DNA of 64,000 nucleotides, taken from the IMG/VR virus record IMGVR_UViG_3300037042_004723, positions 96,001 through 160,000 of that record. One strand, given 5' to 3'. The notes beneath the pieces were generated by a model that saw only the letters and a list, made by a program, of their open reading frames with translations, had not been told where the DNA came from and did no database searches. Within the stretch, counting starts at the first letter, position 1; every line of letters starts with the position of its first letter. The position numbers and the translations under genes were made by a program. Of this stretch, positions 8,613 through 44,060 are shown in pieces. Source of the DNA: a virus.

Positions 8613-8635
8613 CCGATAAGAAAGGTCAGTGATCG

Positions 8636-9238: not shown

Positions 9239-9297
9239 CGTGATCTTTTTTCGGAGGCACTAGGGCGCCGATCCACTAGATGTAGTGGTCGGCTTGG

Positions 9298-9339
9298 TGG
9301 CGAGCACTACTGGTCAAGTGCTCGCCATTCTTCGTTTTG
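9298..9339 (+). terminator. Intrinsic terminator
   Basis: TGGCGAGCACT-N8-AGTGCTCGCCA then TTCTTCGTTTTG; a second hairpin lies at 9268-9292. Confidence 0.7.
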
Positions 9340-9368
9340 TTGACATTGAAAGATCTGGCCGATAGCTT
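9340..9368 (+). promoter_or_regulatory. Sigma70-like promoter of the replication operon
   Basis: TTGACA-N17-TAGCTT. Confidence 0.7.
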
Positions 9369-9405
9369 GCGCGACCTACTGCGACACCAGGACGAGGAGC
9401 GCGCG

Positions 9406-9822
9406 ATGACGATGATGGTTGCTGGGAACTCTTACTATTCGGTTCCTGATCTTCGCAAGCGCAGGTGGTCTTCTGCTGCGATTAGGAAATTTCTTCCTGA
9501 AATCCCGGACCATGTTCAGAAGAAGCCGCCCTGGTTTCCGCAGTCCCAGAAGTCATCCAACGAAATGAAGTTCTGGCGCACGGACAGGGTACACAACGCT
9601 GAGAAGTCCAGCGAGTTCATCGAGTGGATGTCCGGCGAGGCTATTCGTGCCGAAGCGTATCAGCGCACCAACGAAGCACGGCTAAGGAATATTGCCCAAC
9701 GTCAAATCCCTGACCCTCCGCAGGGACATGTCTCGCTGGAAGATCAGTACAAAAACATTCGCGAGGAGAGATCTTCCAAGTCAGCATCGTCGGCTGCCAG
9801 AAAAAACAGGATGCGGCCATGA
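9406..9822 (+). CDS. Hypothetical protein
   Basis: GAGGAG RBS then ATG at 9406; the track start at 9337 overlaps the promoter. Confidence 0.7.
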   Translation: MTMMVAGNSYYSVPDLRKRRWSSAAIRKFLPEIPDHVQKKPPWFPQSQKSSNEMKFWRTDRVHNAEKSSEFIEWMSGEAIRAEAYQRTNEARLRNIAQRQIPDPPQGHVSLEDQYKNIREERSSKSASSAARKNRMRP

Positions 9823-30331: not shown

Positions 30332-30360
30332 AAGCCCGCGCTCATGCGGGCTTTGTTTTG
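30332..30360 (+). terminator. Intrinsic terminator
   Basis: AAGCCCGC-N6-GCGGGCTT-TGTTTTG. Confidence 0.75.
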
Positions 30361-30381
30361 TCCAGATCTTTGCGTAAAAAT

Positions 30382-30410
30382 TTGCGCGTTTGATCTGTTG
30401 GCAATAGTAT
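30382..30410 (+). promoter_or_regulatory. Sigma70-like promoter of the 30.4-38.8 kb operon
   Basis: TTGCGC-N17-TAGTAT, 8 nt before ATG 30419. Confidence 0.5.
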
Positions 30411-30418: not shown

Positions 30419-32293
30419 ATGGCAGACGCTATCCCTGGAAAGAAGTCTCGGTGGACCTCTGAACAGGAGGATCTATTGCGTAAGCTATGGGGAACGCAGC
30501 GAGATATCGAACTTGCTAATGTCCTGGGCAAGACGATCAAATCGGTGCGGTCCAAGGCGACCGAGATGAACATTCGCGCCGAGAAGGGCCTCAGGACAGC
30601 ATGCAGGTCTGGTCGCGTATCTTATCCGTGGAGGGCAGACGAAGACCTTGTTCTTGTTAAGAATGTCGGGCACCTCAGCATATTCGAGTTGATGAACCTG
30701 TTGCCTCGCAGGAATCGCTTGGCCATCGAACGCCGTTGCTATGAGCTTGGCTTCTCTCCGACGCAGGGTACTCACACGCGCCTCCAGATAGAACGAGAGA
30801 CCGGATACGACTGGAGACAGATCCAGCGGGCCCGGGACGCTCTGGGTCAGGCTTGGAAGCGATACGGCACCCGCAAGTACATGATAACCTTTGATCAAGT
30901 TCAGGATATCATTGAGTATTTGCGGACCGAGACGAGAAAGTGGTCTCTCCACTACGACTTAGATCGGTGCATTCTTTGTGGAGTCTCTGGAGCTGAAGAG
31001 CGAACCAGGCATTCCGGCGATGGGCTTTGCAAACGATGCGTGAGTGGAGACACCAGGATTATGGTCCGGGGGCGCGGCCTTTTGCGCATTGATGAGATGA
31101 CTGACAGTGGAGAGTTCGAGGTGTGGTCAGGTAAGGCATGGAGGACTACTACGGCGGTGGAGTCTGGCGTTCAACCAGTCGTTGAGGTTCTATTGAATAA
31201 TGGTTCGAGGATCAAACTTACTGGCGATCATCCGATTTTGACTGATTCTGGAATGATTCACGCCCACGTAATCGATAACGAAAGACTTCCATTAGAATTG
31301 CCATCCGATGTCTGCTTTCCGGAAGTTGCCATGATTTCAAGCGTTAATTGGCATAGTGGTGGTCCGCATGAACAATTCCCACGTGAGTGGACTCGTGACG
31401 TAGGAATGTTCCTTGGTGTCGTCCTTGGTGATGGAGCAATGTCAGGTGGAGAATATCCAACGATTATAATTGGCCTCGGCCGGCAGGACAGAGACGACTT
31501 GATTCATCTCCGAGATGTCGTGGGTGGATGGTGCGGATCAAAGTCTCAAGTTGTTGATTTTGAAAGCAGTCCTAACAAATTTTGCGATGAGCATAGGCCG
31601 ATGTCACGCATTCAGTGGAGGGTCAAGTCTCTGATTGAATTCGTTGGGCAGCTTGGATTAGACAAAAGTCTGCCCATCGAGGAACGTCGGGTTCCTTCTT
31701 CTATTTGGACCGCCAGCGCATCAGGCGTTTCCGGTTTCTTGGCAGGACTGTTTGGTACCGACGGTGCTGTCAGTGTTAACGGTGCTGGCAAGATCGAGAT
31801 ATCAATGTCCTCCGTGAGCGCAGGATTGTTGGAAGACGTTCAAAATCTCTTATGTGCTTTTGGGATCAAATCATCGATGTGGTCGTACCCGAAGAAAGAG
31901 CAATATAAGCAACTATTTGCACTTAGTGTCTTTGGTAAGAAGAACGTTGATTTATTTACACGGCGTATAGGCTTTTCTTGTCGGAGGAAGCGGGATGCCT
32001 TGGCGAAGGCGATCTCGGAATCGACCATCGTTGGTCGAGGTAACCGCCATCTCTCCGTTGAGAGTGTTAGGGATGTTGGAGTCGAAAAGGTCTACGATCT
32101 TGTTAACGTGGGGGATGAGCGACAGTTCGTTGCTAACGGTATAAGTGTTTCAAATTGCTGGGATTTCCGTAGGCATGGTCGGGTCCAAGTGCTCGATGCC
32201 CTGCGGAAGGGAAGGGTGATGATTCTGACTGAGGAGATTTGGCACGCTTACATACGCGACGAACCAGAAGTGCGAATCGTTTCTGCAGTTTAG
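30419..32293 (+). CDS. Myb/SANT-like repeat and zinc-finger regulator, interrupted by an intein
   Basis: RWTSEQEDLLRKLW and PWRADEDLVL repeats; CILC...H...GLCKR|C zinc finger; 251 aa after splicing. Confidence 0.8.
   Translation: MADAIPGKKSRWTSEQEDLLRKLWGTQRDIELANVLGKTIKSVRSKATEMNIRAEKGLRTACRSGRVSYPWRADEDLVLVKNVGHLSIFELMNLLPRRNRLAIERRCYELGFSPTQGTHTRLQIERETGYDWRQIQRARDALGQAWKRYGTRKYMITFDQVQDIIEYLRTETRKWSLHYDLDRCILCGVSGAEERTRHSGDGLCKRCVSGDTRIMVRGRGLLRIDEMTDSGEFEVWSGKAWRTTTAVESGVQPVVEVLLNNGSRIKLTGDHPILTDSGMIHAHVIDNERLPLELPSDVCFPEVAMISSVNWHSGGPHEQFPREWTRDVGMFLGVVLGDGAMSGGEYPTIIIGLGRQDRDDLIHLRDVVGGWCGSKSQVVDFESSPNKFCDEHRPMSRIQWRVKSLIEFVGQLGLDKSLPIEERRVPSSIWTASASGVSGFLAGLFGTDGAVSVNGAGKIEISMSSVSAGLLEDVQNLLCAFGIKSSMWSYPKKEQYKQLFALSVFGKKNVDLFTRRIGFSCRRKRDALAKAISESTIVGRGNRHLSVESVRDVGVEKVYDLVNVGDERQFVANGISVSNCWDFRRHGRVQVLDALRKGRVMILTEEIWHAYIRDEPEVRIVSAV
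31037..32155 (+). mobile_element. Intein (LAGLIDADG, 373 aa) ending Ser-Asn
   Basis: KR|CVSGDT...LTGDHPI...LGVVLGDG...FLAGLFGTDG...ANGISVSN|C. Confidence 0.93.
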
Positions 32294-32331
32294 ATCTGGC
32301 ATCGTCCAGTCGTGGTAGATAGGATGCCAGC

Positions 32332-32547
32332 ATGTCGATGCGAATCAGGCCAGATACACTTCGTTCGGAGATCGAGCAGGTAGTCTCGATTCTGTCCAGC
32401 TGGCAGGATAGGCTTGCCCAGGGCGTCCCCGGAGACGAAGCTCCGGCCAACGATCTGAACGCTGAGATTTTTCAATTCCAGCTTAGAGGCGAGGTGCAGC
32501 TCGCAGCCGAGAGGCTGATGGCCCTCGTTGAGGTGCTTGAGGTATGA
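32332..32547 (+). CDS. Small helical hypothetical protein
   Basis: 71 aa; 4-nt overlap with the next gene. Confidence 0.65.
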   Translation: MSMRIRPDTLRSEIEQVVSILSSWQDRLAQGVPGDEAPANDLNAEIFQFQLRGEVQLAAERLMALVEVLEV

Positions 32548-33314
32548 GGTCTGCGGATAAGCTAACTGACATTTCTCGGGTCGAGCTTGATCCGAATGTT
32601 CTCATTGGCGCCGAGTGGAACCCCAATGAGATGGCCATCGAGGATTTCAATTTGCTCAAGGAGCAAATCAGCGAGATTGGCTTCATCGATCCTCCAACCG
32701 TAGTTGAGGTAGAGGATTCGAGCGGCAAGCCATTCTATCGCATCATCGGCGGGCATCATCGAGTAGCTGCGGCCAAGGAGCTTAAGCTTCGCAAGATCCC
32801 GGTTGACGTTCTTCAGGGCGACAGATGGAAAGACGAGGACCTATGCAAGATGCAGACTGTTCGCCTAAACGTCTTGCACGGAAAAATGAACCCGGAAAAA
32901 ATGGTCTCTCTCTATAATGAGATGGCCGGCAAGTACGGAGACTCGGTGACCAAGATGCTTGGTTACGCAAGCGACGCTGGGCTGAAGAAGATGATCAAGC
33001 AGGTCCAGGGAGACCTTGCTAAGACGCTGGAGCCAGAGCTTGCCAAGCAGTTTCAGGAGCAGGCCAAGGAGGCCAAGACTGTTGGAGATCTGGAGAAGAT
33101 CATCCAGAGACTAATGTCCGACAGTGGAGGCACGGCCAAGCACGGCTTTGTGGTGTTTTCGTGGGGCGGCAAGGAGCACATCTACGTGGCGATGTCTGAC
33201 AAAACCCGAGAAGCCATGAAGAGGATCGTCCGCGCGTCCAGGGACAACAAGGTCGACGTTAATGAGATCATCGAGGAGGCGGTCGTCGACGCCGCAAGAG
33301 GGCTGGAGTCTTAG
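32544..33314 (+). CDS. ParB/Srx-like N-terminal domain protein
   Basis: WNPNEM...LKEQISEIGFIDPPTV...YRIIGGHHRVAAAKEL...IPV. Confidence 0.85.
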   Translation: MRSADKLTDISRVELDPNVLIGAEWNPNEMAIEDFNLLKEQISEIGFIDPPTVVEVEDSSGKPFYRIIGGHHRVAAAKELKLRKIPVDVLQGDRWKDEDLCKMQTVRLNVLHGKMNPEKMVSLYNEMAGKYGDSVTKMLGYASDAGLKKMIKQVQGDLAKTLEPELAKQFQEQAKEAKTVGDLEKIIQRLMSDSGGTAKHGFVVFSWGGKEHIYVAMSDKTREAMKRIVRASRDNKVDVNEIIEEAVVDAARGLES

Positions 33315-33316
33315 AT

Positions 33317-33619
33317 ATGGCGCCCAAGGTCGACAAGCCGTCGCTACTCCCTGATGACATCGTTGGGGATGCCCGCAGGATTAGGATGATTAGCATCGAC
33401 CCGGCTACCGGCGACGACAAGTCGATCGTTGGAGAGGCGTGGCAGGATGCGACCGGCAAGCTGCATGGCACCGGCATCGCTGGCGTGATGTTGTTTGAGC
33501 CAGTATCGATGGCCAAGTATCGCATGGCGTCTATTGCTAAGGATTTGTCTCCTCTTTCTATCTTCTATTCCAGGATAGCTAGAAGTTCATTTATCAGAGT
33601 TGAGCTGGTGAAAAAGTGA
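33317..33619 (+). CDS. Small kinase-coupled protein 1
   Basis: 100 aa; paralogous to 35255 (RI.MI...GD...AWQ.A.G.L...GI). Confidence 0.7.
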   Translation: MAPKVDKPSLLPDDIVGDARRIRMISIDPATGDDKSIVGEAWQDATGKLHGTGIAGVMLFEPVSMAKYRMASIAKDLSPLSIFYSRIARSSFIRVELVKK

Positions 33620-35265
33620 CCAGAGAACTTGATGAAAAGTTTGGCTCCCAATTGACCAGGGTGCTGAAGAAGGTTAATCGCAAGGACGGGGACGGCGGAA
33701 CCAAGACGGTTGACCAGGCGTTCCATGTCCGCAAGGCTGCTCCAGGCGATCGGTATGCAGCATTCAAGACTCTTGAGTCAAGGACGGCCGAAGGACCAGG
33801 CGCAGCAGGTGCTGAAATGTCAAATCCGGAAGAACAGCCCGCAGATCAGGCAGACGGCTCGCAAGATCCCACGCAGCAGCCAGACGAGTCGCAGGAACCT
33901 GTGCAGCCGGCGCCCGTTGTCAGAATAATGGTTAGGCGTCTCGATATTCCATGGCTCAAGAAGGGTGACAAAGCCAGGGAGAAGGCTAAGGCCCTGGCCA
34001 GGGATCCAATTTCGCCAGAATTGAGGCAGCGTTTCAAGAAGGGCAGCGGTTCGATTGCTATGTCGAACCCGGCCGTCACCGGCCTTCCGATCACCACGGT
34101 TGTGCCGACAGACAGGATCTTCTGGGGGGCTGACGAGCCTGGCTTGCTTGTGTCGCTGCGTTCCGGGACCATCAGGAAGATGCGCTTGGTCGGTGGCAGT
34201 AATGGCTTGATGATAATCAAGATCGAGGCCATCGGAGGCGGGTCCTTCTACGGGTATATGTGGATGGAGTCCTTGCGATGCTCTCTCCTGAAGCAAATCT
34301 GGGGAGATATCATAGATTTTTCTGATCCAGATGGCCCGCTTTCCAAGAGGGCTGCATGTTCGTATGAAACCGCTAAGGCTTGCGGATTGGACGATCTAAC
34401 TCCGCCGACCGTTCATCGCGTGGACGACGATGGCGACATCAGATCTATGCTTCCGGATTCTCTTATCGAGCAAGCCAACGAATGGGTGTCCACGACGTCC
34501 GGCATTGATCCTGATGCGGTCAAGAGCGGCATCAGCGGTCATGCGACCGTCCAGCTCGTTCGTGGTGAGCCATGGCCAATTGAATCAGAGGAGTGGTTCA
34601 GGGACCTATTTGGAAGCGGCGATCCGTCGGCCCTGAATGACATATGGTCGTCTATGCCTCCGGATCGCAGGATCGGCTTGTTGCGGTTGGCTGCACTCGA
34701 TTTCGTTACCGGGTCACTGGATAGGTCTTTCGGCGATCTGGTGTTTTCGGATGATCCAAGACATCCAGTTGTTGCGTATGGCGGCGAGATGTCAATCCCC
34801 TGTCCAAGGACGATTGGGATGGCGTATGCCAGCGGAGGTTACGCTGGATATCTGGATAACGAGTCTGCCAATCTACCGCTTTTCTGGAGCGAAGCGTCGA
34901 CCATGCTGGCGGTTCGTGGCGGAGATCGGGAGATTGACGACTACGAGTTGATCGGGATAGCAATCGCGTCGCGGATGAAAGAAAACCGAGCCGTAGAATT
35001 GGCGAGGTCACTTCATGACCACAAGCTAACTGCGCTCCAAATCTCTGGGATTTTGAGTCGCATCTGGATGATGAATACTCATTCAAGGGACATCGCCAAG
35101 GATCCGTACCTGGCGGCCAGGTATTACGCATCGATTGTTTCCGGGCAGGCCGATCCATTGATGGACGGAGTGAAGGACTTTGTAAACAATACAATGCGGC
35201 AGGTCCTGGTCGGAAAATTTGACTTCTATAAGGTCATGAAGTCGGGGGCAGAGGATGCTGCTTGA
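33616..35265 (+). CDS. PI3/4-kinase/HipA-like fold protein, predicted pseudokinase
   Basis: KRAACSYETAKACGLDDLTPPTV and LDFVTGSLDRSFGD; the IDHG position reads AYGG. Confidence 0.7.
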   Translation: MTRELDEKFGSQLTRVLKKVNRKDGDGGTKTVDQAFHVRKAAPGDRYAAFKTLESRTAEGPGAAGAEMSNPEEQPADQADGSQDPTQQPDESQEPVQPAPVVRIMVRRLDIPWLKKGDKAREKAKALARDPISPELRQRFKKGSGSIAMSNPAVTGLPITTVVPTDRIFWGADEPGLLVSLRSGTIRKMRLVGGSNGLMIIKIEAIGGGSFYGYMWMESLRCSLLKQIWGDIIDFSDPDGPLSKRAACSYETAKACGLDDLTPPTVHRVDDDGDIRSMLPDSLIEQANEWVSTTSGIDPDAVKSGISGHATVQLVRGEPWPIESEEWFRDLFGSGDPSALNDIWSSMPPDRRIGLLRLAALDFVTGSLDRSFGDLVFSDDPRHPVVAYGGEMSIPCPRTIGMAYASGGYAGYLDNESANLPLFWSEASTMLAVRGGDREIDDYELIGIAIASRMKENRAVELARSLHDHKLTALQISGILSRIWMMNTHSRDIAKDPYLAARYYASIVSGQADPLMDGVKDFVNNTMRQVLVGKFDFYKVMKSGAEDAA

Positions 35266-35509
35266 TAATCGCAGGCTTCGGATCAGCATGATCAACATGG
35301 TGAACGGCGACATGGTCTCGACTCATGCTGCCGATGCATGGCAGGAGGCGGACGGAACGCTTTCTGTGAGTGGTATTTGGAGTGATTTGATTCCTGCCTC
35401 CAAGGAAGACCACGTTCTCATGGCCGAAGCCGCCGGTGTGTCATCGCTGGAATGGCTCCGTCGTCGTTTGCTTACATGTCCAATGATAGCTATGGAGATC
35501 TTTGATTAA
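35255..35509 (+). CDS. Small kinase-coupled protein 2
   Basis: 84 aa; paralog of 33317. Confidence 0.7.
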   Translation: MLLDNRRLRISMINMVNGDMVSTHAADAWQEADGTLSVSGIWSDLIPASKEDHVLMAEAAGVSSLEWLRRRLLTCPMIAMEIFD

Positions 35510-37158
35510 TGTTGAAAAGAAATTCATGGATTGACACGGTCCAGCTGCTGCGTGCCGGTCAATTGAAGGAGATCATGCTGGAGACGACCGAACTGGCGAG
35601 GCCTGGCAATATTGGCCAAGCTGCTCTTGCCCAGCAGGCCGCTCAGGCCGCTCCAGCCCCGCAGGCCGCTCCAGACCCGCGCCTGGCTATGCCGTCACCA
35701 GGCGCCCCAGATCCACTGGCCGCCCAGGCGCCGCCAGCGCAGCAGCAACCGGCTTGGGCCAAGTGGGGGGCTGTTCCGGGGAAGACCGAGCTGCATAGTA
35801 CCGAACCAAGCTTGGCGTCGAGAACCAGGCCGGACTTGGCCCAACCAGCCGAGCGTCACTCGTCTTTTCATAAGGCATATCACGACAAGGCAGCGACTAA
35901 TAAGTCACTGGCCAGACTCATGTCCGCCGGCAACGTCAATCTCGTTTATCATGGACAATTAGACAGCGGGCACAATTATATAGCTAAGCCAGTATCCGGC
36001 ATGTGGCACCGTCACCAAAAGACTGGCCAGATGGATCCGTATACTCTGAATCAGTACACGCAAGATCAGCCGAACATGGCCAATCGCCATGACGCGACAT
36101 ACGAATTGATGTCGGCCATGGGGGCTCATCATATGGTTACGCCAGGCATGCAGACGAATATGCATCAGCGTCATCAGTTTGGAGGCCCGGATCCGGACCC
36201 GAATGCGGATAAATTTCAGCGCAGGGAAATGGCCAGCGGCGTTGCTGGCGAATCTGCTCACGTAAATGAGTTCGTGCCCGGACTGGTGATGGCGGGAAAA
36301 TCTTCTAGTGGAGAGCTAGGCAAAGTTGACGCAGAGCATCGTCTTCATGGAATGGTTGCCCATTTGCTTTTTGGTAATCAGGATGGACACCATGAAAATG
36401 TGATGATTCATCAGAAGACCGGCCACCCGGTACTGATCGACCACGACATGGCGCTGGATTCCGTCAATTCCCGTGGAAACATGATGAGGTACGGCGCTCA
36501 CTCGGTTAAGTCAGTATTCTCGCCGGGGGGCATCCTTGACTATCAGGCTAAATTGCCCAGGGATAGTAACGGTCAAATAATTCCAGTTGGGAAAAATTAT
36601 CCGCCCAGGATGAGAGAGGTGCTCGATAGAGTTGCCGACGGCTATTATACCGAGGGGCCTGGTAAGTTAAACCTGTCACCGGGAGATCACGCAGACCTCC
36701 AGCATCACGCCCGCGACTTGCTGACCCATGGCCTTGAGGACACCCTTGATAGAAGAGTTGACATTTACAACCCGCATAAGGCGAAGAAGGCCGCTCCGGC
36801 GAAGAAGGCCGCTCCGGCGGCAGTAGCTCCGGCGAAGAAGGCCGCTCCGGCGGCAGTAGCTCCGGCGAAGAAGGCCGCTCCGGCGGCAGTAGCTCCGGCG
36901 AAGAAGGCCGCTCCGGCGGCAGTAGCTCCGGCGGCAGTAGCTCCGGCGGCAGCCGCTAAGGCTCTTAAGCAGCGTAAGAAGCCGGAGCCGCGAAAGCGTC
37001 CCCCGGTGACAGAGAAACCGGCAGCACAAGCCAAGGCGCCGTTGCACCACGGGTCGGTTCAGCGAGCACTTGACGATATCAGGGTTAAGCCGGACAATTC
37101 TGTTCAGAGGGCGCTCAAGGGCATCAGGTTCAGCGCGCCTGGCAAGGGGAAAAAGTAG
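35509..37158 (+). CDS. PI3/4-kinase/HipA-like kinase with intact motifs and a Lys/Ala/Pro-rich tail
   Basis: YIAKP lysine, FGNQDGHHENVM catalytic loop, VLIDHD metal-binding motif. Confidence 0.78.
   Translation: MLKRNSWIDTVQLLRAGQLKEIMLETTELARPGNIGQAALAQQAAQAAPAPQAAPDPRLAMPSPGAPDPLAAQAPPAQQQPAWAKWGAVPGKTELHSTEPSLASRTRPDLAQPAERHSSFHKAYHDKAATNKSLARLMSAGNVNLVYHGQLDSGHNYIAKPVSGMWHRHQKTGQMDPYTLNQYTQDQPNMANRHDATYELMSAMGAHHMVTPGMQTNMHQRHQFGGPDPDPNADKFQRREMASGVAGESAHVNEFVPGLVMAGKSSSGELGKVDAEHRLHGMVAHLLFGNQDGHHENVMIHQKTGHPVLIDHDMALDSVNSRGNMMRYGAHSVKSVFSPGGILDYQAKLPRDSNGQIIPVGKNYPPRMREVLDRVADGYYTEGPGKLNLSPGDHADLQHHARDLLTHGLEDTLDRRVDIYNPHKAKKAAPAKKAAPAAVAPAKKAAPAAVAPAKKAAPAAVAPAKKAAPAAVAPAAVAPAAAAKALKQRKKPEPRKRPPVTEKPAAQAKAPLHHGSVQRALDDIRVKPDNSVQRALKGIRFSAPGKGKK
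36781..36945 (+). repeat. Perfect coding tandem repeats (AKKAAP x5, AAVAP x5)
   Basis: 18-nt GCGAAGAAGGCCGCTCCG and 15-nt GCGGCAGTAGCTCCG modules in the order K K A K A K A K A A, all identical. Confidence 0.95.
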
Positions 37159-37464
37159 ATGAAATTTTTGATTACGTCATCGGTTGAGACGGGCAGGGTT
37201 GATCAGATTCTGTGGAAGGAAGGGGATATCGTCGTGTCCAAGACGCTGTACAGAGACGGCACCCAAGAAAAGAGGACAACCTATCACGCTACGTTGTTTG
37301 ATGCCGCCGGAGAAATGGGCAACGGGTACAGCAGCTCTCGCCTTGTGGATGTTGCTGATGTTAGGTCTGCGGAGAAGTATCTAGGCAAGTCGTCCGACTT
37401 GGTCAATGCATTGCCGGAGCAGGACATTTATGCCCCCGACGAGCCAAGCATCAACGCTTCGTAG
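37159..37464 (+). CDS. Small protein 3, upstream of the third kinase-like gene
   Basis: 101 aa; abuts the previous stop. Confidence 0.65.
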   Translation: MKFLITSSVETGRVDQILWKEGDIVVSKTLYRDGTQEKRTTYHATLFDAAGEMGNGYSSSRLVDVADVRSAEKYLGKSSDLVNALPEQDIYAPDEPSINAS

Positions 37465-38767
37465 TGTATTCGGGGCCCTTTCCCAAAATCCGCCAGGCCT
37501 GTCAGCGCGACTAAACGACAAGCCTTCCATAGACGATACAACACCAGCTCTCGACGAGCTTCCGGCAACCCCTGTTCTTCATGAGAAGACCGGGGTTGTC
37601 TTGTTGCCGGCCGCCAGGATCGATGGCTCGGTTACCGATTCGTCATGGAGCATCGGTGAGCCAGCCCTCTGGACTTGGCTACGCACGGCTCCAATTGAGC
37701 ATCTTGAGGAGCGAGTACAGGATGGACTAGGTGGGTCGTTTTGGGTTCGATGTCGGAACCAAGAAGGAGAGCTGCGAAGTGCTGTTCTTCGTTTTGATAC
37801 CGTTGGATTTGATACGATTTATGAGGCATGGGGCCAGGAATATGGCCTTTCCGTCGAGAACCATGACGTCCTAAGACGCGAGCAGGCTGCTTACGAGATT
37901 GCCAAGGGGATCGGATGCGAAGATCTGCTGCCTCCGATAGCCATCAGAGAGGCGAATCTTGTTCCTTTGATTTCCGATGCAGTCAGGGACAAGGTTGCCG
38001 CCGAGCTTGGTATCGATCAGATACTCGTGGACGAGACGTTTGGCGTCATTGCCGCACTGCAGGCGACTCCGTTAAACGCCCGCAATTTTGTCGAGTACTG
38101 GGCGACCCTGGGGCCAGATGCCACCAACAGGTGGGCGAGGTCGTCAAGCGCACTCAGGCACGGCCTTTATCGAATGATTGCTTTGGACTTTGTGCTCGGA
38201 ACTGGAAATCGATCGCTGGCCGACTTTCTCTTCAATGAGGCTTCCGGGTCGGTGGTTGCCTATGGATTTGGTGTAACCCTGCCAAGTCCGACTGCTACAG
38301 CGGATGGATATCTTGCCCATAGAGCGCGCGGATGGGGCAGGCGACTCGCTGGTCCACTCGAAGAGCCAGCCCCTGGTTCCCCACCGTTTGGATCTGACAC
38401 GTCATTCCTGATTCATGGATTTGGCGATCGTGAGCGGGCCGAATGCTTGATGACGTTCAAGCAGATGTCCAAGGCTGCCGACGAGACGATCGTAGGACTT
38501 TTGTGTCGAATCATGATCGAGGTCGGCGTTCCGGTTGAACACGTTGCGGGCTTTGTCGCTAGGCTTTCCTTCCTTCAGGAAGATCCAGAGTCGGTTATCA
38601 GTAACCAATTCGACTTCGTCAGAAGCATCCTGGTTCCGATGCGGCGTGGTTACGGATTTGAGGCTGGGCGCAACGCCAAGATGGTCGAAACCGTCAATCA
38701 GATCATGACGACGGCATCCGGCCAGGAGTACGACTTCGCTTCTGCGATGCAGGCCCAGCAGGGATAG
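37430..38767 (+). CDS. PI3/4-kinase/HipA-like fold protein, predicted pseudokinase
   Basis: RREQAAYEIAKGIGCEDLLPP and LDFVLGTGNRSLAD (catalytic D to N); AYGFG; paralog of 33616. Confidence 0.72.
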   Translation: MPPTSQASTLRSVFGALSQNPPGLSARLNDKPSIDDTTPALDELPATPVLHEKTGVVLLPAARIDGSVTDSSWSIGEPALWTWLRTAPIEHLEERVQDGLGGSFWVRCRNQEGELRSAVLRFDTVGFDTIYEAWGQEYGLSVENHDVLRREQAAYEIAKGIGCEDLLPPIAIREANLVPLISDAVRDKVAAELGIDQILVDETFGVIAALQATPLNARNFVEYWATLGPDATNRWARSSSALRHGLYRMIALDFVLGTGNRSLADFLFNEASGSVVAYGFGVTLPSPTATADGYLAHRARGWGRRLAGPLEEPAPGSPPFGSDTSFLIHGFGDRERAECLMTFKQMSKAADETIVGLLCRIMIEVGVPVEHVAGFVARLSFLQEDPESVISNQFDFVRSILVPMRRGYGFEAGRNAKMVETVNQIMTTASGQEYDFASAMQAQQG

Positions 38768-38822
38768 CTGCGCAAACACTTGCGCTGGTGTCTATTGCAA
38801 CATCATCTGCAATTGAGCTGGA

Positions 38823-38895: not shown

Positions 38896-39666
38896 ATGGT
38901 GATGTCCAACAACGGCACTCGTAGACCGTCTATTCGACCAGTAAGCCGTGAGCCGAAGAAGGCTGCGTCCGCGCTTCAGGATTGCCGGTGCTTTGAGGAA
39001 GTTGAGCGCAGGACCAGGATGGGATGGCCATCCTCGGATCTGGCCAAATTTATCCAAGAAGATAGCCAGGAGCTAGTTCACCTGAGCCAGTCATACGTCA
39101 GGAAGATGGTGGACGACTTCAGGAAGACCATCCCACCAGCCGAGCTGTTGCTGACGACGCAGAACACGACCGTAGCGATGCATTCGGCCCAGAAGGTTGC
39201 GAACGGCATGGAGGAGCTGGCTAAGCTTAGCGAGCTGTATGACCTCCAGATGGATCGCATCAAGATCGACGTTGAGAACGAGAAGAAGATCAATAAGCTC
39301 TTCCAGACGACGGGCCGAGAGATCTTCTATGCGATGAAGATTCTCAAGCAGACGTCAGACCTGAAGATGGATCTGGGTCTGGCCAAGCGGCAACTTGGAG
39401 AGGTGTCCGTGTCCGGGCAGGCGGCTGTTCAGATTGGTGATCGATACACTGATGGGGTCGGCAGGGTGATGGCTGATCCGGACAGTCGGCGGAAGGTGCT
39501 TGGCATGGTGGAGACGCTCATGTCTCTAGGTGCCAAGGCCAACCTAGACGCCACCGAGATTGTCAGAAGCGCAACCACGTTTGTGGCCGATGACGTCATT
39601 GACATCGAACCTTCAGCATCCGCTGAGTTGCCAAATGATGAGCAGCCAGAGGGCGCAGAAGAGTAG
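38896..39666 (+). CDS. Probable terminase small subunit
   Basis: N-terminal HTH-like segment plus coiled coil; ends 2 nt upstream of TerL. Positional inference. Confidence 0.55.
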   Translation: MVMSNNGTRRPSIRPVSREPKKAASALQDCRCFEEVERRTRMGWPSSDLAKFIQEDSQELVHLSQSYVRKMVDDFRKTIPPAELLLTTQNTTVAMHSAQKVANGMEELAKLSELYDLQMDRIKIDVENEKKINKLFQTTGREIFYAMKILKQTSDLKMDLGLAKRQLGEVSVSGQAAVQIGDRYTDGVGRVMADPDSRRKVLGMVETLMSLGAKANLDATEIVRSATTFVADDVIDIEPSASAELPNDEQPEGAEE

Positions 39667-39668: not shown

Positions 39669-42600
39669 ATGGCCATCAGGGATCTTGGTGGGAGAGTTCG
39701 CAGCGAGCAGACGAAGGACGAGGTGCTTCGTCTGCTGAGGACTGAATTTGCGAACCTGAGCGACGAAGAAAAGCAGGCGGTGATGCTCTGCCTGAAGGAG
39801 CTTGATGACCCGGCGTTCAACGACATGGAGGCCAATGGGGAGGTCGCCCCTACGAGGATCTACGATGTCTTGACCGAGGCTGAATATATTCGCAAGCCAG
39901 TCGACATCGAGACGTTCGTCAGAGATCCATATTATCTCGGGAAGACCTGCGATGTTCTCTATCCGAAGCTTCTCGACGATATGAAGGAGCTGTTTGGCGG
40001 TCACTACCGAGAGACCATCCTGAGCGGTAGCATCGGTTGGGGGAAGTGCCTGGATTCATTGACAGAACTATATAACACGAAGACCGGGAGGCGAGAGCTT
40101 ATTTCCGACGTATCGGACCTTGGCGTCGCCTCGATGGTCGACGGGGGCGGAATAGAGCCCAGGGATGCGTCCTGCTTCAAGTCGGGCAGGAAGCGGTGCG
40201 TCAGGGTTGCGCTGGCCGACGGGAAGTCGATCGTTGCCAGCAACGACCACAGAATCTTCACTGCGCGAGGGTGGGTGGGGGCGTCTAAGCTTGGCTGTGA
40301 CGACTTGGTCGCCACTCCAAGGAAGCTGCCAGATCCGGACTCAACAACCGACGTTGCCGATTCCGTTGTGAAGCTGGTGGCGTACCTGTTGGCCGACGGA
40401 GGGTGTACCGGGCCGACGACGTTCACCAACGCCTGCGAGGATGTACTTGTTGAGTTCTGTGAGCTTGTCAACGAGCTTGGCGACAGCTCTCAGTATGACA
40501 AGTGGCACCGGCACATAGAGACTGGTGTTGCCATCGTCGATGATGGCAACAGCGGGATGGCCCTGACACTGAGGGCTAGTGGGGTCAGGCACCTGGTTAC
40601 AAGGTACGGGTGTGACAAGAAGTCGATCGACAAGCGTATTCCTGCCGAGTTCTATGGGTTGCCAAGGAACCAGGTTGCTCTCTTTTTGAACCGATTCTGG
40701 GCGTGCGACGGGTCGTTTTCCGTGGCATCGCCCAGGAAGGTTGAGATTGGGCTGGGATCCGAGGGGCTCGTAGATGACTTGATGTTCTTGTTGCTTCGCC
40801 TTGGGATTCAGTCGCGCAAGTACTACAAGAAAAAATCTTGCACTTACAAGGGAGAGAAGAAGTGGTTCGACTCGTGGTGCCTTACGGTAACGGACAGGGA
40901 TGGCATCATTAGCTTTCTGGACGCCGTTGGACCAGTGGTTGGCAAGGTCGATAAGTGCATGGCGCTGCGTGCGGCGTGCGAGGCCGTCAAGTCGAATCCG
41001 AACTGCGATGTTGTTCCGGTTGGCAATGCGGAGCTGCTTGAGATAAGGTCTGAGCTTGGCTCTCGTGGCGGAGGGCTTTCCGCTAGGTTTGGATGTCCAG
41101 AGGGGCAGCTGTTCTCTCGCCAGCGATTTGAGAAGCTTTGTTCTGAGTATGAGTACGTCGGCAAGTATTCGTGGCTGGCCGGGTCGGATATCTACTGGTC
41201 GAAGATCAAGGAGGTCGTCGATGTTGGAGACCGCGATGTCTACGACCTGACGGTCCCAGGTACCGAGAATTTTGTTGCGAACAACATAGTGGTTCACAAC
41301 AGTTTCTTTGCGTCCATCGCAGCCTGTCGGATCATCTACGAGCTGTCGTGCATGCGAGATCCGCACAAGAGCTTCGGCATCGGTAAGGGCACCGACATCA
41401 CGATGGTCGTTCTTTCTGTCAAGGAAGACCTAGCGATCAAGGTCGCCTTCGAAAACATCGCAAATAAGATCAAGGAAAGCGATTATTTCAAGGAGAACTT
41501 CCCCTTCAAGCCGATGAAGAAGGAGATCATCTTCCCCAGTAAGATCCAGATCGCAGCTCGTGCCTCAACGGATAGCGCAGCACTCGGTCTCAACGTCTTC
41601 GCGGCTTGGATTGACGAGTCCAACTTCATGCAGCCCATGAAGAAGAAGGGCGGGATCGAAAGTCGCGTCGGGAACATGGATCGAGCCCAGTTCCTCTACG
41701 ACCAGCTTATTCGTCGTATGAAGTCTCGCTTCCAGCGCCACGGCAAGTTGCCAGGCATGATGATCGTGGTGTCGTCGAAGCAGACGCGCGATGACTTCAC
41801 GGCCAAGCGGATCAAGGACTCCAAGGACGACCCAACCGTCTTCGTTCGCGACTATGCAACCTGGCACGTGAAGCCGGATGGGATTTACTCCAAGGAGACG
41901 TTTTATGTCCTCGTGGGAAACGACTTGGTCCCGTCTAAGGTCCTCACACCTGAGGAGATCGACGTCACCAGGGATAAGCTACAGGACGGGATGCTCATCA
42001 TTGATGTCCCTATCGACTTCAAGAACGATTTCACGAGCAATATCGAAGACTCCATTCGAGACATTGCCGGCGTCGAGACGGTTTCGGTGTCGCCGTTTAT
42101 CCAGCAGCGAGATCTGATCATCCCGTGCATCGACGTTAATCGTCAGCATCCGTTTACCGTTGAGGAGTGGGTCCCCACCGAGCACGGAAAGTTCGTGTGG
42201 TCGAGGCTGGCCAGACAGGTGGAAGTCCGCGACGGCGCTTCGATTAGTCGAGAATGGCAGCCGTTGTTTCACCAGGGCGCCGCCAGGCATATTCACATCG
42301 ATCCATCGCTCAACTCCGATGCGACCGGGTTCGCTGTTGGCTGTGTCACTGGGTACAAGACGGTCGTTCGCCGTGACGAGGAGACGCGCGAGCAGTACAC
42401 AGAGCGAGCCCCTGAGATCTGGGTAGACTTCATGCTTCGCATCAAGCCTCCCATTGGGGGCGAGATTGATCACGGTCTTGTTCGGTCGCTCGTCTATCAG
42501 ATGCAGGCTAAGGGGTTTTCGATCAGCCTAATCACGATGGACCAGTTCAATTGCCTAGTTGCCGGTACGATGGTGCCTACGGCACGCGGGATACTGCCGA

Positions 42601-44060
42601 TCGAGCAGGTCGTTGTCGGGGACATCGTTCAGTCGCGCATCGGTCCTCGTCCGGTCGAGAACACCTGGAACTACGGGGAGAGGGAGACGATCAAGATCGT
42701 CACTCAGGATGGCGATGTTCTTGAGGGGACGCCGAATCACAGGATTGAGATCCAGGTTGGGTGGACCAAGGAGCACCAGAACGAGTACGGGTGGACGAGG
42801 GACCCTGTCTGGGAGTGGAAAACGCTGTCCGAGCTGTCGGTGGGCGATGTGGTCCACATGGCCGATCAGCCGGTCTCCCTTGACCCGCCGGACGTAGAGC
42901 TGAGCGGGTGCAAGGAAGACTTCGGGTGGACGAGTCCGCGTGGCCTGATCGGCAACTGGACGCTGCCGTCAAAGATGACGCCTGAATTGGCCGAGTTCCT
43001 TGGCCTGCTGTGGGGCGACGGCGACGTCTCTGACAAGCTGATCAGGCTGACGTTCCACGTGGACGACACGGAGGACGTCCAAGCGAAGTTCATTGGCCTT
43101 TTCGGTGAATGCCCAGCTGTCGAGGTTAGTCGTCTGACGGACAAATGCGCGTCCGTTCGTTTTGGATCCACGTGGGTGTGCCGATGGATGGCGCACAACG
43201 GCCTGGTCAAGCCGACGATCCCTGATGCCGTCATGCGTTCAAGCAAGGCAGTCAAGTCGGCGTTCCTAAGGGGACTTTTCTCTGCCGACGGCGCGGTCAG
43301 CAAGATTGACGGAGAGATCTCTCTGGGAACGTCGGTGAGATGCCTCGCTGAGCAGGTGCGGCTAATTCTCCGCGCCGACTTTGGGATTGAGAGCTGCCTG
43401 GTGACCACGGAGAAGAAGTACAAGAGCCAGCAGGCGATGCCAGGGTGGCACGGTGGGCTTCACTACGTAGTGTCCGTTCGTGGCCCCAGGAGGCGGTTCC
43501 AGGAGAGAGTCGGGTTCTGCTATCGGGGCAAGTCAGAGATGCTGGCGAGACATGTCGAGGTGAATGGGCGCCGCAAGTTCTCGAAGATTGTCGACATCGA
43601 GCATGGGTTCGGAGAGGTGTTCGACATTCAGGTTGCAGACGACCCGTCGTACATCGCGAATGGGTTCGTTTCGCACAATTCGGCAAGCTCTCTGCAGACA
43701 TTTGCCACTAAGGGAATTACGGCCGAGCGCCTGTCCGTAGATAAGCCGATGGATGCGTACGATATCCTTAAGACAGCTATCTACGAGAACAGGCTCAGCT
43801 TCTACGGATACAATCCGTTGCTTGAAGAGTTGCGGTGGATCCAGAAAGACAACATCCGCAACAAGGTGGACCACCCACAGGGCAAATCCAAGGATCTCGC
43901 GGACGCCCTGGCTGGTATCGTCTTCTCGTTGACGACGATGTATCACGGCCCCCCGATGGGGGTGTACAAGGGGATATCGCAGTTCAATGACCCGGTAGCC
44001 GAGGAACAGCGAGAGATCGTAGAAGAGGACTTCCCCCTGCTACCTTTTCTGCAAGGATGA
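39669..44060 (+). CDS. terL: Terminase large subunit with two inteins
   Basis: Walker A GSIGWGK|S, Walker B AWIDES, nuclease HIHID, MDQ, DHP..KSKDLADA; 669 aa after splicing. Confidence 0.93.
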   Translation: MAIRDLGGRVRSEQTKDEVLRLLRTEFANLSDEEKQAVMLCLKELDDPAFNDMEANGEVAPTRIYDVLTEAEYIRKPVDIETFVRDPYYLGKTCDVLYPKLLDDMKELFGGHYRETILSGSIGWGKCLDSLTELYNTKTGRRELISDVSDLGVASMVDGGGIEPRDASCFKSGRKRCVRVALADGKSIVASNDHRIFTARGWVGASKLGCDDLVATPRKLPDPDSTTDVADSVVKLVAYLLADGGCTGPTTFTNACEDVLVEFCELVNELGDSSQYDKWHRHIETGVAIVDDGNSGMALTLRASGVRHLVTRYGCDKKSIDKRIPAEFYGLPRNQVALFLNRFWACDGSFSVASPRKVEIGLGSEGLVDDLMFLLLRLGIQSRKYYKKKSCTYKGEKKWFDSWCLTVTDRDGIISFLDAVGPVVGKVDKCMALRAACEAVKSNPNCDVVPVGNAELLEIRSELGSRGGGLSARFGCPEGQLFSRQRFEKLCSEYEYVGKYSWLAGSDIYWSKIKEVVDVGDRDVYDLTVPGTENFVANNIVVHNSFFASIAACRIIYELSCMRDPHKSFGIGKGTDITMVVLSVKEDLAIKVAFENIANKIKESDYFKENFPFKPMKKEIIFPSKIQIAARASTDSAALGLNVFAAWIDESNFMQPMKKKGGIESRVGNMDRAQFLYDQLIRRMKSRFQRHGKLPGMMIVVSSKQTRDDFTAKRIKDSKDDPTVFVRDYATWHVKPDGIYSKETFYVLVGNDLVPSKVLTPEEIDVTRDKLQDGMLIIDVPIDFKNDFTSNIEDSIRDIAGVETVSVSPFIQQRDLIIPCIDVNRQHPFTVEEWVPTEHGKFVWSRLARQVEVRDGASISREWQPLFHQGAARHIHIDPSLNSDATGFAVGCVTGYKTVVRRDEETREQYTERAPEIWVDFMLRIKPPIGGEIDHGLVRSLVYQMQAKGFSISLITMDQFNCLVAGTMVPTARGILPIEQVVVGDIVQSRIGPRPVENTWNYGERETIKIVTQDGDVLEGTPNHRIEIQVGWTKEHQNEYGWTRDPVWEWKTLSELSVGDVVHMADQPVSLDPPDVELSGCKEDFGWTSPRGLIGNWTLPSKMTPELAEFLGLLWGDGDVSDKLIRLTFHVDDTEDVQAKFIGLFGECPAVEVSRLTDKCASVRFGSTWVCRWMAHNGLVKPTIPDAVMRSSKAVKSAFLRGLFSADGAVSKIDGEISLGTSVRCLAEQVRLILRADFGIESCLVTTEKKYKSQQAMPGWHGGLHYVVSVRGPRRRFQERVGFCYRGKSEMLARHVEVNGRRKFSKIVDIEHGFGEVFDIQVADDPSYIANGFVSHNSASSLQTFATKGITAERLSVDKPMDAYDILKTAIYENRLSFYGYNPLLEELRWIQKDNIRNKVDHPQGKSKDLADALAGIVFSLTTMYHGPPMGVYKGISQFNDPVAEEQREIVEEDFPLLPFLQG
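40047..41300 (+). mobile_element. TerL intein 1 (LAGLIDADG, 418 aa)
   Basis: GK|CLDSLT...SNDHRI...VAYLLADG...FWACDG...IVVHN|S. Confidence 0.95.
42552..43679 (+). mobile_element. TerL intein 2 (LAGLIDADG, 376 aa)
   Basis: FN|CLVAGT...TPNHRI...LGLLWGDG...LRGLFSADG...FVSHN|S. Confidence 0.95.

What the first reader, a model, noticed from the sequence alone, without database searches (positions are those of the whole stretch)
30419..38767. Operon with a threefold-repeated small protein + kinase-fold module: one active kinase between two pseudokinases
Seen: between a terminator/promoter (30332-30410) and TerS, abutting or overlapping genes run: regulator, small, ParB/Srx, then small-kinase x3. 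35509 keeps K, DxHxxN and IDH. 33616 and 37430 are paralogs that lost the metal-binding Asp, and 37430 also has D to N. The small genes 33317 and 35255 are paralogs. Established: HipA-family kinases are often paired with a separately encoded ~100-aa N-terminal module, which is the antitoxin HipS in HipBST, and myxobacteria have large Ser/Thr kinase networks. Inference: a phage phospho-signalling or anti-defence system in which pseudokinases regulate or decoy for the active kinase. This is the best protein-level candidate for an undescribed system here.
Basis: partly seen in the sequence, partly recalled or inferred. Interest (0 to 1): 0.85.

Follow-up and report, generated by a model that had tools for sequence, protein, structure and literature searches.

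The report
Phage kinase with two dead-kinase paralogs
An uncultured group of large T4-like phages keeps, just before its DNA-packaging genes, an operon with one apparently working kinase of the type II PI4-kinase kind, two catalytically degenerate relatives and three small partner proteins; no such combination has been described in a phage and its function is untested.

Summary
The layout differs from what it proposed.

- **Setting.** The window lies in a 197-kb virus record from a sediment metagenome.
- **Synteny.** The order g250, g71, ParB, sA, pkA, sB, K, sC, pkC, g256, TerL recurs in 10 related loci; an eleventh lacks K and sC.
- **K (35509-37158).** It keeps the ATP-binding Lys, DGHxxN and IDHD in 36 homologues. 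Sequence evidence places it in the PI3/PI4-kinase group.
- **pkA and pkC.** They are paralogues (hhalign 99.7%). A confident pkA model matches type II PI4-kinases (Z 19-20), then Fam20 and CtkA. HipA is far lower (Z 10). Both lack the catalytic His and the metal-binding Asp, and pkC also lacks the catalytic Asp.
- **Not a threefold repeat.** sA and sB are paralogues, as are pkA and pkC, but sC is unrelated. One phage (L020) lacks exactly K and sC. The units are therefore (sA-pkA), (sB-pkC) and a K-sC cassette.
- **Capsid link.** Of 10 long canonical relatives scanned, 3 carry a Mu-F head-protein domain (one below Pfam's cut-off) and 1 a portal domain.
- **Likeliest role (inferred).** Capsid-delivered host-takeover or anti-defence proteins.
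- **HipBST.** This analogy is not supported.

No part of the function was tested.

The parts
30332..30353 (+). Terminator-like hairpin (9 bp, 6 GC, T-rich tail) that closes the upstream unit
   Evidence: sequence
30372..30387 (.). 16-bp palindrome GCGTAA-N4-TTGCGC just upstream of the operon. The same motif follows pkC.
   Evidence: A match lies at or just upstream of the annotated start in 6 of 9 related loci that include it (in L005 inside the longest ORF, which is therefore probably over-called).
30419..32293 (+). g649: regulator-like protein (PHROG 323 'transcriptional regulator, D5-like') interrupted by a LAGLIDADG intein. It is about 250 aa and intein-free in relatives.
32332..32547 (+). 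g71: conserved 71-aa protein of no known family
   Evidence: 56-79% identity in relatives
32544..33314 (+). ParB-like nuclease-domain protein
   Evidence: PHROG 26387 at E 3.9e-50; Pfam ParB_N at 7.4e-5
33317..33619 (+). sA: 100-aa protein, paralogue of sB, translationally coupled to pkA
33616..35265 (+). pkA: catalytically degenerate protein with a type II PI4-kinase-like fold. It has a conserved basic N-terminal segment, a low-complexity linker and a core at residues ~100-549. The catalytic loop is LDRSFGD and the DxG motif is replaced by AYGGE.
   Evidence: AF2 pLDDT 86.3; Z 19.9 to PI4KII
35255..35509 (+). sB: 84-aa paralogue of sA. In the K-less phage L020 it sits directly upstream of pkC.
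35509..37158 (+). K: motif-complete PI3/PI4-kinase-like protein (K160, D292/H294/N297, D311/D313) with a basic C-terminal tail (net charge +25)
36793..36933 (+). Perfect 33-bp tandem repeat, 4.3 copies, inside K. It encodes (APAKKAAPAAV)n.
37159..37464 (+). sC: 101-aa protein unrelated to sA/sB, fast evolving, absent together with K in L020
37430..38767 (+). pkC: paralogue of pkA with every catalytic position degenerate (GNRSLAD; AYGFG)
38770..38785 (.). Second copy of the palindrome (GCGCAAACACTTGCGC), 3 nt after the pkC stop codon
   Evidence: Present after pkC in 8 of 10 related loci.
38896..39666 (+). g256: conserved protein directly upstream of TerL. Possibly the small terminase, not verified. 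It lies outside the palindrome-bracketed unit.

Best explanation
Shown:
- 30419-38767 is a conserved, translationally coupled operon of an uncultured clade of ~200-kb phages with T4-type portal and capsid genes.
- It holds three diverged members of the type II PI4-kinase / SCO1664-like branch of the protein-kinase-like fold.
- K keeps every catalytic motif. pkA and pkC are old paralogues that have lost them. pkC is fully degenerate. pkA keeps an Asp-Arg pair plus the invariant D374 and E391.
- The evolutionary units are (sA-pkA) and (sB-pkC), a tandem duplicate. A separable K-sC cassette sits between sB and pkC.
- One phage lacks exactly K and sC. The block sB-K-sC-pkC has also been exchanged as a unit between two phages.
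- All six genes are under purifying selection.

Inferred:
- K is an active ATP-dependent phosphotransferase, probably a protein kinase. Its basic tail may steer it to nucleic acid or to proteins bound to it.
- sC, encoded directly downstream and lost together with K, is K's cognate binding partner. It may hold K in check in the producing cell, as an immunity protein does.
- pkA and pkC, each with its small partner, act without catalysis as binders, decoys or scaffolds, and they do so even where K is absent.
- The operon abuts the packaging and head genes, and several of the closest canonical relatives of these domains are fused to Mu-F or portal head proteins. The most likely setting is therefore proteins packed into the capsid and delivered with the DNA, for host takeover or counter-defence.
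For: Synteny:
- The full gene order is kept in 10 loci.

K:
- Motifs are invariant in 36 homologues.
- 9 of 19 members match PF00454, best E 8.9e-6.
- Language-model features score 0.96 to PI3_PI4_kinase clusters.
- The K profile recognises 55 of 82 canonical relatives, with Lys, DxHxxN and IDxG in register.

pkA and pkC:
- hhalign gives 99.7% between them.
- Their joint profile finds proteins carrying PF00454 at E 1e-8 to 1e-3 in 1.84 billion sequences; 9 of 10 scanned pass Pfam's cut-off.
- The pkA model (pLDDT 86.3) scores Z 19.9, rmsd 4.2 over 262 residues to PI4KIIbeta; Fam20 15.6, CtkA 13.1, HipA 10.2.
- ESM Atlas structure search (by shape): SCO1664 family, TM 0.82.
- The motif losses are read from the alignments.

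Units:
- sA~sB and pkA~pkC are paralogue pairs.
- L020 has sA-pkA-sB-pkC with no K or sC. It is sister to L011, which has the full set (support 98/100 and 100/100).
- Window against L005: nucleotide identity rises from 70-80% to 90-98% exactly over sB..pkC, and dS is 0.22-0.35 there against more than 1.6 in ParB, sA and pkA.
- dN/dS in that unsaturated block: pkC 0.17, sB 0.12, K 0.34, sC 0.69.

Capsid link:
- Of 10 long canonical relatives scanned, P0141 and P0165 carry Phage_Mu_F above Pfam's cut-off, P0133 carries it below the cut-off, and P0112 carries Phage_portal, each N-terminal to the kinase domain.
- BFVD fold matches include kinase domains in 'head morphogenesis', 'portal', 'ADP-ribosyltransferase' and 'Nudix' fusion proteins.
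- The operon is followed by TerL, portal, prohead protease and major capsid protein.

Published analogies:
- Mu-F proteins sit in the head, and their toxin fusions are followed by small immunity ORFs (PMC5576092).
Against: - No function was tested. K itself could not be modelled: the single-sequence fold failed with pLDDT 35.
- The window's K scores 19.4 bits on PF00454, below Pfam's cut-off of 27.1.
- K has Gly where canonical relatives have the Arg of DRH, and the helix-C Glu is not conserved in K's family.
- Direct K-to-pk homology is not significant.
- The capsid-cargo idea rests on relatives' architectures and on gene position. None of the six proteins matches a structural PHROG. The operon is bracketed as a unit separate from the terminase genes.
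- The L020 contig is only ~32% complete, so K could lie elsewhere in that genome.
- pkA's invariant D374 and E391 leave room for residual or different chemistry.
- The basic tail of K is long only in the window and its closest relative, and is short or neutral in some homologues.
Confidence: 0.5

Rival explanations
1. HipBST-like toxin-antitoxin reading. Each small protein is a HipS-like N-terminal module that neutralises the kinase encoded after it, and the operon is an addiction or abortive-infection type module.
For: Small ORFs of ~85-100 aa are translationally coupled to each kinase-fold gene. HipA and HipT share the broad fold (Z 10.1 and 8.8).
Against: - No HipA Pfam family matched K, pkA or pkC.
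- PI4KII, Fam20 and CtkA match far better than HipA.
- The pkA model has a complete N-lobe of its own.
- sB stays when K is deleted and then abuts pkC.
- sA/sB occur only in this phage clade, and no fused form was found.
- The setting is a large phage with lytic-type gene content, and the operon lies next to its head genes.
Confidence: 0.06
2. pkA, and perhaps pkC, are not dead. They would be kinase-fold enzymes with migrated catalytic residues and a different chemistry, such as AMPylation, glutamylation or small-molecule phosphorylation, as in SelO, SidJ or Fam20B-type enzymes.
For: - pkA keeps Asp-Arg in the catalytic loop in 8 of 9 orthologues. D374 and E391 near the lost DxG motif are invariant.
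- Both families keep the helix-C Glu and several invariant Arg, Asp and Lys residues around the former active site.
- Purifying selection is strong.
Against: The position aligned to the ATP-binding Lys varies in pkA (K/R/H/Y/A) and is mostly Tyr in pkC. In pkC the catalytic-loop and DxG positions differ from one orthologue to the next, which is not expected of an active site.
Confidence: 0.15
3. K is a lipid or small-molecule kinase rather than a protein kinase. It would be PI4KII- or MavQ-like and remodel host membrane lipids, or it would phosphorylate a metabolite or modified DNA. The ParB-like neighbour would belong to the same pathway.
For: The best structural relatives of the family are lipid kinases: PI4KII at Z 19-20 and MavQ at 11.3. 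The ParB-like gene is always adjacent.
Against: The next-best relatives (Fam20C, CtkA, actin-fragmin kinase, CotH) are protein kinases. A shared fold does not fix the substrate. No membrane-binding segment is evident. K's basic tail and the Mu-F/portal-fused relatives fit a protein or nucleoprotein target better.
Confidence: 0.12
4. The six proteins act inside the infected cell on the phage's own processes, such as control of packaging, replication or head assembly through phosphorylation. They would not be packaged or aimed at host defence.
For: The operon sits between the replication genes and the terminase and includes a regulator-like gene and ParB. It is a unit bracketed by a clade-wide palindrome.
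Against: The module evolves faster than its neighbours: 38-44% identity in the most distant locus against 55-66% for ParB, g256 and TerL. K-sC is dispensable at this site in L020. Blocks are exchanged between phages. These are traits of host-interaction genes rather than core machinery.
Confidence: 0.2

Closest known systems
Type II phosphatidylinositol 4-kinases (PI4KIIalpha/beta) and bacterial SCO1664-family (TIGR03843) proteins
   Same: Best fold match of the pkA model: Z 19-20 over 262-276 residues, and TM 0.82 to SCO1664 models. Canonical relatives share the 'GNxDRHxGNW...IDNGLxFP' motifs, which K keeps as 'GNQDGHHENV...IDHDMAL'.
   Different: Identity is only 12-14%. K, pkA and pkC do not reach the TIGR03843 or PF00454 cut-offs. 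These are phage genes. pkA and pkC lack the catalytic residues. SCO1664 proteins are themselves uncharacterised.
Fam20A pseudokinase with Fam20C kinase; vaccinia B12 pseudokinase with B1 kinase
   Same: An active kinase sits beside a paralogous, catalytically impaired kinase-fold protein. Fam20 is the second-best structural match at Z ~15. A virus-encoded kinase and pseudokinase paralogue pair is known in poxviruses (PMC6395007).
   Different: No evidence here that pkA or pkC bind or regulate K. The pseudokinases persist where K is missing. There are two pseudokinases, each with its own small partner. The setting is a bacteriophage.
Mu-F (SPP1 gp7-like) polymorphic toxins and other head-protein fusions of phages
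   Same: Canonical relatives of these kinase domains are fused behind Phage_Mu_F or Phage_portal domains (BFVD). Mu-F toxins are followed by a small immunity ORF (PMC5576092), as K is followed by sC. The operon lies in the packaging and head region.
   Different: K, pkA and pkC stand alone with no Mu-F or portal domain. The phage has a T4-type portal. Kinase domains are not mentioned in that paper's main text ('kinase' occurs 0 times). Packaging was not shown.
Phage T7 protein kinase (gp0.7)
   Same: A phage-encoded kinase that uses a C-terminal DNA-binding part to reach nucleic-acid-binding defence proteins (PMC13645617). K has a strongly basic C-terminal tail.
   Different: K matched no PHROG family at all, so it has no annotated phage-kinase relative there. 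The fold branch differs. T7K is an early gene with no pseudokinase partners.
HipA / HipBST kinase toxin-antitoxin systems
   Same: Same broad fold class. A small protein is encoded before a kinase.
   Different: Fold match is much weaker: HipA Z 10.1 and HipT 8.8, against 19-20 for PI4KII. No HipA Pfam family matched. The kinase-fold proteins are complete. sB is not tied to K.

Membership tests
PI3/PI4-kinase-like catalytic domain (Pfam PF00454; type II PI4K-like fold) | Bilobal kinase fold closest to PI3K/PI4K structures | tested here: met
   pkA core model (pLDDT 86.3): Z 19.9, rmsd 4.2 over 262 aligned residues to PI4KIIbeta, and Z 19.2 to PI4KIIalpha in the unbiased search. It holds for pkC by paralogy. 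K itself was not modelled.
PI3/PI4-kinase-like catalytic domain (Pfam PF00454; type II PI4K-like fold) | Score at or above Pfam's gathering cut-off (27.1 bits) | tested here: not met
   Window K scores 19.4 bits and pkC 14.5 bits; pkA has no match. Support is indirect: 9 of 19 K homologues match at E<=0.01; both profiles hit proteins that pass the cut-off; language-model scores are 0.94-0.96.
PI3/PI4-kinase-like catalytic domain (Pfam PF00454; type II PI4K-like fold) | Catalytic residues: ATP-binding Lys, D-x-H-x-x-N loop, metal-binding Asp of I-D-x-G | tested here: met
   This row is for K only. K160, D292, H294, N297, D311 and D313 are invariant or at least 90% conserved in 36 sequences and align with the canonical motifs. 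The Arg of DRH is Gly in K.
Pseudokinase (kinase fold without catalytic residues): pkA, pkC | Kinase fold retained while canonical catalytic residues are lost, and the gene is kept under selection | tested here: met
   His is replaced by Ser, Asn by Asp, and the DxG Asp by Tyr or Phe. pkC also has Asp replaced by Asn, Ser or other residues. dN/dS for pkC is 0.17 in an unsaturated pair. Absence of activity can only be shown by assay.
HipA family / HipBST | HipA-type kinase domain (Pfam HipA_C or HipA_2) | tested here: not met
   K, pkA, pkC and their orthologues have no match at E<=0.1. HipA scores Z 10.1 and HipT 8.8, against 19-20 for PI4KII.
HipA family / HipBST | The small protein corresponds to the missing N-terminal subdomain of a truncated kinase (HipS with HipT) | tested here: inconclusive
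   The pkA model has its own N-lobe strands and helix C. sB is retained without K.
SCO1664 family (NCBIfam TIGR03843) | Score at or above the model's cut-off (172.4 bits) | tested here: not met
   K, pkA and pkC have no match at E<=0.01. The canonical intermediates score 40-60 bits. The similarity is in shape only, TM 0.82.
Mu-F / portal-fused capsid cargo proteins | N-terminal Phage_Mu_F or portal domain on the same polypeptide | tested here: not met
   No such domain in K, pkA or pkC. It is present in relatives P0141, P0165 and P0112, and below Pfam's cut-off in P0133.
Mu-F / portal-fused capsid cargo proteins | Presence in the virion | not testable with these tools
   The phage is uncultured and no proteome is available.

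The most novel reading that the evidence does not exclude
A capsid-delivered kinase and pseudokinase set, the first pseudokinase system described in a bacteriophage. The phage would pack one active PI4KII-like kinase, kept silent by its downstream partner sC. It would also pack two dead-kinase paralogues with their own small partners, which act on infection as decoys or sensors against host immunity independently of the kinase. The parts would be exchanged between phages as cassettes.
Probability: 0.2. Interest if true: 0.8.

Novelty: new variant of a known kind. Interest (0 to 1): 0.58.

Why it matters
Phage kinases have recently been shown to disarm bacterial immunity broadly (T7 kinase, PMC13645617). 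Only a few phage kinase families have been studied, and no pseudokinase has been described in a phage within the literature searched.

This operon supplies three new protein families of the PI4KII/SCO1664 branch, plus two families of small partners. It also carries natural experiments: a phage that lacks K and sC, and a block exchanged between two phages. These already say which genes belong together.

If the proteins are delivered through the capsid, the case would extend the 'head protein carrying an effector' idea. That idea is known from Mu-F toxin fusions of temperate phages and from T4 Alt (the latter from general knowledge). Here it would apply to free-standing kinases of large T4-like phages.

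It would also give a first functional handle on the uncharacterised bacterial SCO1664 family.

Tried and rejected
- **Close relatives in GenBank phages.** Megablast of the region and tblastn of K and pkA found nothing. The capsid protein is at most 37% identical to that of any isolate.
- **PDB sequence search.** No meaningful match for K, pkA or pkC.
- **Single-sequence AlphaFold of the K core.** It failed (pLDDT 35) and used one of the two fold jobs. K therefore has no model.
- **Direct profile comparison of K with pkC and pkA.** Probabilities 18% and 0.3%. The link was made through shared canonical relatives instead.
- **Complex prediction of sB with K (residues 1-420).** Score 0.00, 'no answer'; it counts neither for nor against binding.
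- **Fused forms of sA/sB with a kinase ('longer' search).** None found, which is weak evidence.
- **sC related to sA/sB?** hhalign probability 1.5%.
- **NCBIfam and PHROG.** No family for any of the six proteins.
- **Sequencing runs.** One sediment metagenome holds the stretch and is probably its source. No RNA holder is listed.
- **T4-style capsid-targeting propeptide.** pkA orthologues have (L/I/V)-x-E at residues ~5-8 in 7 of 9 sequences. K and pkC show nothing comparable, so this was not used as evidence.
- **Sigma-70 promoter scan.** No more sites than in shuffled sequence.
- **Myxococcus phage Mx1.** It has only a remote kinase next to a giant Nudix protein, which is not this module.

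Full report
**Context.** The window is bases 96001-160000 of a 197,279-bp IMG/VR virus record. The only run that holds most of the stretch is a sediment metagenome, probably its source. All genes in the region lie on the + strand. Downstream come a terminase large subunit with inteins, a T4-type portal, a prohead protease and a gp23-like major capsid protein. That capsid protein is at most 37% identical to any isolate's. The host is unknown, and nothing ties the phage to myxobacteria.

| Gene | Coordinates | Note |
|---|---|---|
| g649 | 30419-32293 | start fixed by the relatives' alignments and by a terminator-like hairpin at 30332-30353 |
| g71 | 32332-32547 | |
| ParB-like | 32544-33314 | PHROG 26387, E 3.9e-50 |
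| sA | 33317-33619 | |
| pkA | 33616-35265 | |
| sB | 35255-35509 | |
| K | 35509-37158 | |
| sC | 37159-37464 | |
| pkC | 37430-38767 | |
| g256 | 38896-39666 | after a 128-bp gap |
| TerL | from 39669 | |

The junctions are ATGA, GTGA, TAATG, TAGATG or short overlaps. This fits translational coupling.

**Paralogy.** pkA and pkC are paralogues (BLASTP 2e-20 at 23% identity; hhalign 99.7%). sA and sB are paralogues (8e-8). sC shows no relation to them. K is not detectably similar to pkA or pkC by direct comparison.

**What the large proteins are: K.**
- K has 35 metagenomic homologues.
- Across 36 sequences K160 (YIAKP), N297, D311 and D313 are invariant. D292 and H294 are at least 90% conserved.
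- Nine of 19 members match Pfam PI3_PI4_kinase (best 8.9e-6). The window's own protein scores 19.4 bits, below the cut-off of 27.1.
- Language-model features place K next to PI3_PI4_kinase clusters (0.96). pkC lands next to the same clusters (0.94-0.95).

**What the large proteins are: pkA and pkC.**
- A joint pkA+pkC profile was searched against 1.84 billion representatives. It found 56 family members at E up to 1e-10.
- It then found about 80 remote proteins at E 1e-8 to 1e-3. Each matched in two stretches: helix C, and the catalytic loop with the DxG region.
- Nine of ten of these pass Pfam's PF00454 cut-off. The five scanned against NCBIfam match the SCO1664 family below its cut-off.
- The K profile recognises the same set, 55 of 82 at E<0.01, with Lys, DxHxxN and IDxG in register. 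K and pkA/pkC are therefore linked through shared canonical relatives.

**Structure.**
- AlphaFold2 on the pkA core with a 51-row alignment gave pLDDT 86.3 and pTM 0.86.
- Best matches are type II PI4-kinases: Z 19.9, rmsd 4.2, 262 residues.
- Then come Fam20C/Fam20A (about 15), CtkA (13), actin-fragmin kinase (12.7), MavQ (11.3), CotH (10.8), HipA (10.1) and HipT (8.8).
- The ESM Atlas search by structure gives SCO1664-family models at TM 0.82.

**Active or dead.** The canonical 'DFVIGNTDRHSGNWL...VVLIDNGLSFP' aligns with three local versions:
- pkA: 'LDFVTGSLDRSFGDLVF...VVAYGGEMSIP'
- pkC: 'LDFVLGTGNRSLADFLF...VVAYGFGVTLP'
- K: 'LLFGNQDGHHENVMI...PVLIDHDMAL'

K therefore keeps all catalytic positions except the Arg of DRH, which is Gly. 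pkA has lost the His and the metal-binding Asp, but it keeps Asp-Arg in 8 of 9 orthologues and has invariant D374 and E391. In pkC these positions differ from orthologue to orthologue, as expected for a site no longer under catalytic constraint.

Both pseudokinase families keep the helix-C 'YE..K' and several invariant Arg and Asp residues. Some ligand or partner binding at the old active site is therefore likely. In the one unsaturated comparison, pkC has dN/dS 0.17, so it is a maintained gene.

**Conserved synteny and the real units.**
- The order g250-g71-ParB-sA-pkA-sB-K-sC-pkC-g256-TerL is found in L002, L003, L004, L005-L008, L010, L011 and L019 (L004 with split ORFs). It is found in L009 as far as that contig reaches.
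- Identity in the most distant locus is 33-44% for the six module genes. It is 55-66% for the regulator-like gene, ParB, g256 and TerL.
- L020 (a 42-kb contig) is the exception. It has sA-pkA-sB-pkC with sB abutting pkC, and no K or sC there or elsewhere on the contig.
- L020 is sister to L011, which has the full set (ParB tree 98/100, g256 tree 100/100). The simplest reading is a clean loss of K+sC.
- With sA~sB and pkA~pkC, this shows the repeat is a tandem duplicate of (small + pseudokinase). K-sC is a separable cassette between sB and pkC.
- Between the window and L005, nucleotide identity jumps from 70-80% to 90-98% exactly from the start of sB to the end of pkC. dS there is 0.22-0.35, against more than 1.6 in ParB, sA and pkA. 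That block has recently moved between phages as one piece.
- Within the block sC evolves fastest (dN/dS 0.69), then K (0.34).

**Operon boundaries.** A 16-bp palindrome, GCGYAA-N4-TTRCGC, lies just upstream of the first gene (30372-30387) and 3 nt after the pkC stop (38770-38785). The window has 12 matches where 0.66 are expected. The same two positions carry it in most related loci. Its role was not tested.

**Where the proteins may act.**
- Ten long canonical relatives were scanned. P0141 and P0165 carry an N-terminal Phage_Mu_F domain above Pfam's cut-off and P0133 carries one below it. P0112 carries Phage_portal. In each the PI3_PI4_kinase domain is C-terminal.
- P0112 is also the second-best hit of the K profile.
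- BFVD fold matches of the pkA model include phage proteins named 'head morphogenesis domain', 'portal', 'ADP-ribosyltransferase' and 'Nudix'.
- Mu-F proteins sit in the head bound to the portal. Their toxin fusions are followed by small immunity ORFs (PMC5576092).
- The operon abuts the packaging and head genes. pkA, K and pkC each have a conserved N-terminal segment followed by a low-complexity linker.
- K ends in a basic tail in most homologues. In the window the tail has net charge +25 and includes a perfect 33-bp repeat of 4.3 copies.

From these points I infer, without proof, that the proteins are packed in the capsid and delivered with the DNA for host takeover or counter-defence. I also infer that sC is K's cognate partner.

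The HipBST analogy fails three ways: the family test, the fold ranking, and the L020 arrangement. The idea that the pseudokinases merely regulate K is weakened by their persistence without K. That contig is only about 32% complete, however.

**Limits.**
- K has no structural model.
- The one complex job (sB with K) gave no answer and probably tested the wrong pair.
- No expression or virion data exist.
- All functional statements are inferences.

**Novelty.** PI3K/PI4K-like domains are annotated in some phages and archaeal viruses. I found no description of a phage operon that combines an active member with conserved pseudokinase paralogues and small partners. I rate it a new variant of a known kind, with interest 0.58.

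**Earlier scan notes.** The scan's notes on this genome had already flagged pkC as a pseudokinase and the intein in the regulator-like gene. My tests agree with both.

Noticed in passing
window 30372-30387 and 38770-38785; also 11094, 7647, 2159, 51455: A 16-bp palindrome, GCGYAA-N4-TTRCGC, recurs in intergenic spots (12 matches against 0.66 expected). It brackets the g649-to-pkC unit at the same two positions in most related phages. It could be an operator, a transcript-end hairpin or a promoter-linked signal.
   Followed up: partly
window 35258-38651 against L005: Nucleotide identity to the closest relative jumps from 70-80% to 90-98% exactly over sB-K-sC-pkC, with dS 0.22-0.35 against more than 1.6 outside. 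This is a recent recombinational exchange of that block.
   Followed up: yes
L020:10594-14114 (IMGVR_UViG_3300031673_000148): A related phage has sA-pkA-sB-pkC with K and sC missing at the syntenic site. Its sister L011 has all six genes.
   Followed up: yes
window 30419-32293: The regulator-like first gene (about 250 aa in relatives) carries a ~360-aa LAGLIDADG intein here (Pfam LAGLIDADG_3 at 7.7e-15). Relatives align to residues 26-232 and 590-649 only.
   Followed up: partly
window 39669-44060: The large terminase is 1463 aa against ~670 aa in most relatives. Alignments break at residues ~128-533 and ~983-1337, which fits two inteins. L002 and L020 each carry a long insertion of this kind too.
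   Followed up: partly
window 36793-36933: A perfect 33-bp tandem repeat, 4.3 copies, inside K encodes (APAKKAAPAAV)n. It lengthens a basic tail that is short in most homologues.
   Followed up: partly
L004:6080-6842 and 8188-9814: In a contig nearly identical to L003, both the regulator-like gene and pkA are split into two ORFs. These are either frameshift mutations or assembly errors.
   Followed up: no
P0112, P0133, P0141, P0165 (remote relatives): PI3_PI4_kinase-like domains are fused behind Phage_portal or Phage_Mu_F domains. P0133 also shows a weak intein signal.
   Followed up: partly
L012 (Myxococcus phage Mx1, 28851-30710 of OR576727.2): A 619-aa 'kinase' remotely related to the canonical family lies directly after a 1479-aa 'NUDIX hydrolase'. 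The context differs from the window's.
   Followed up: no
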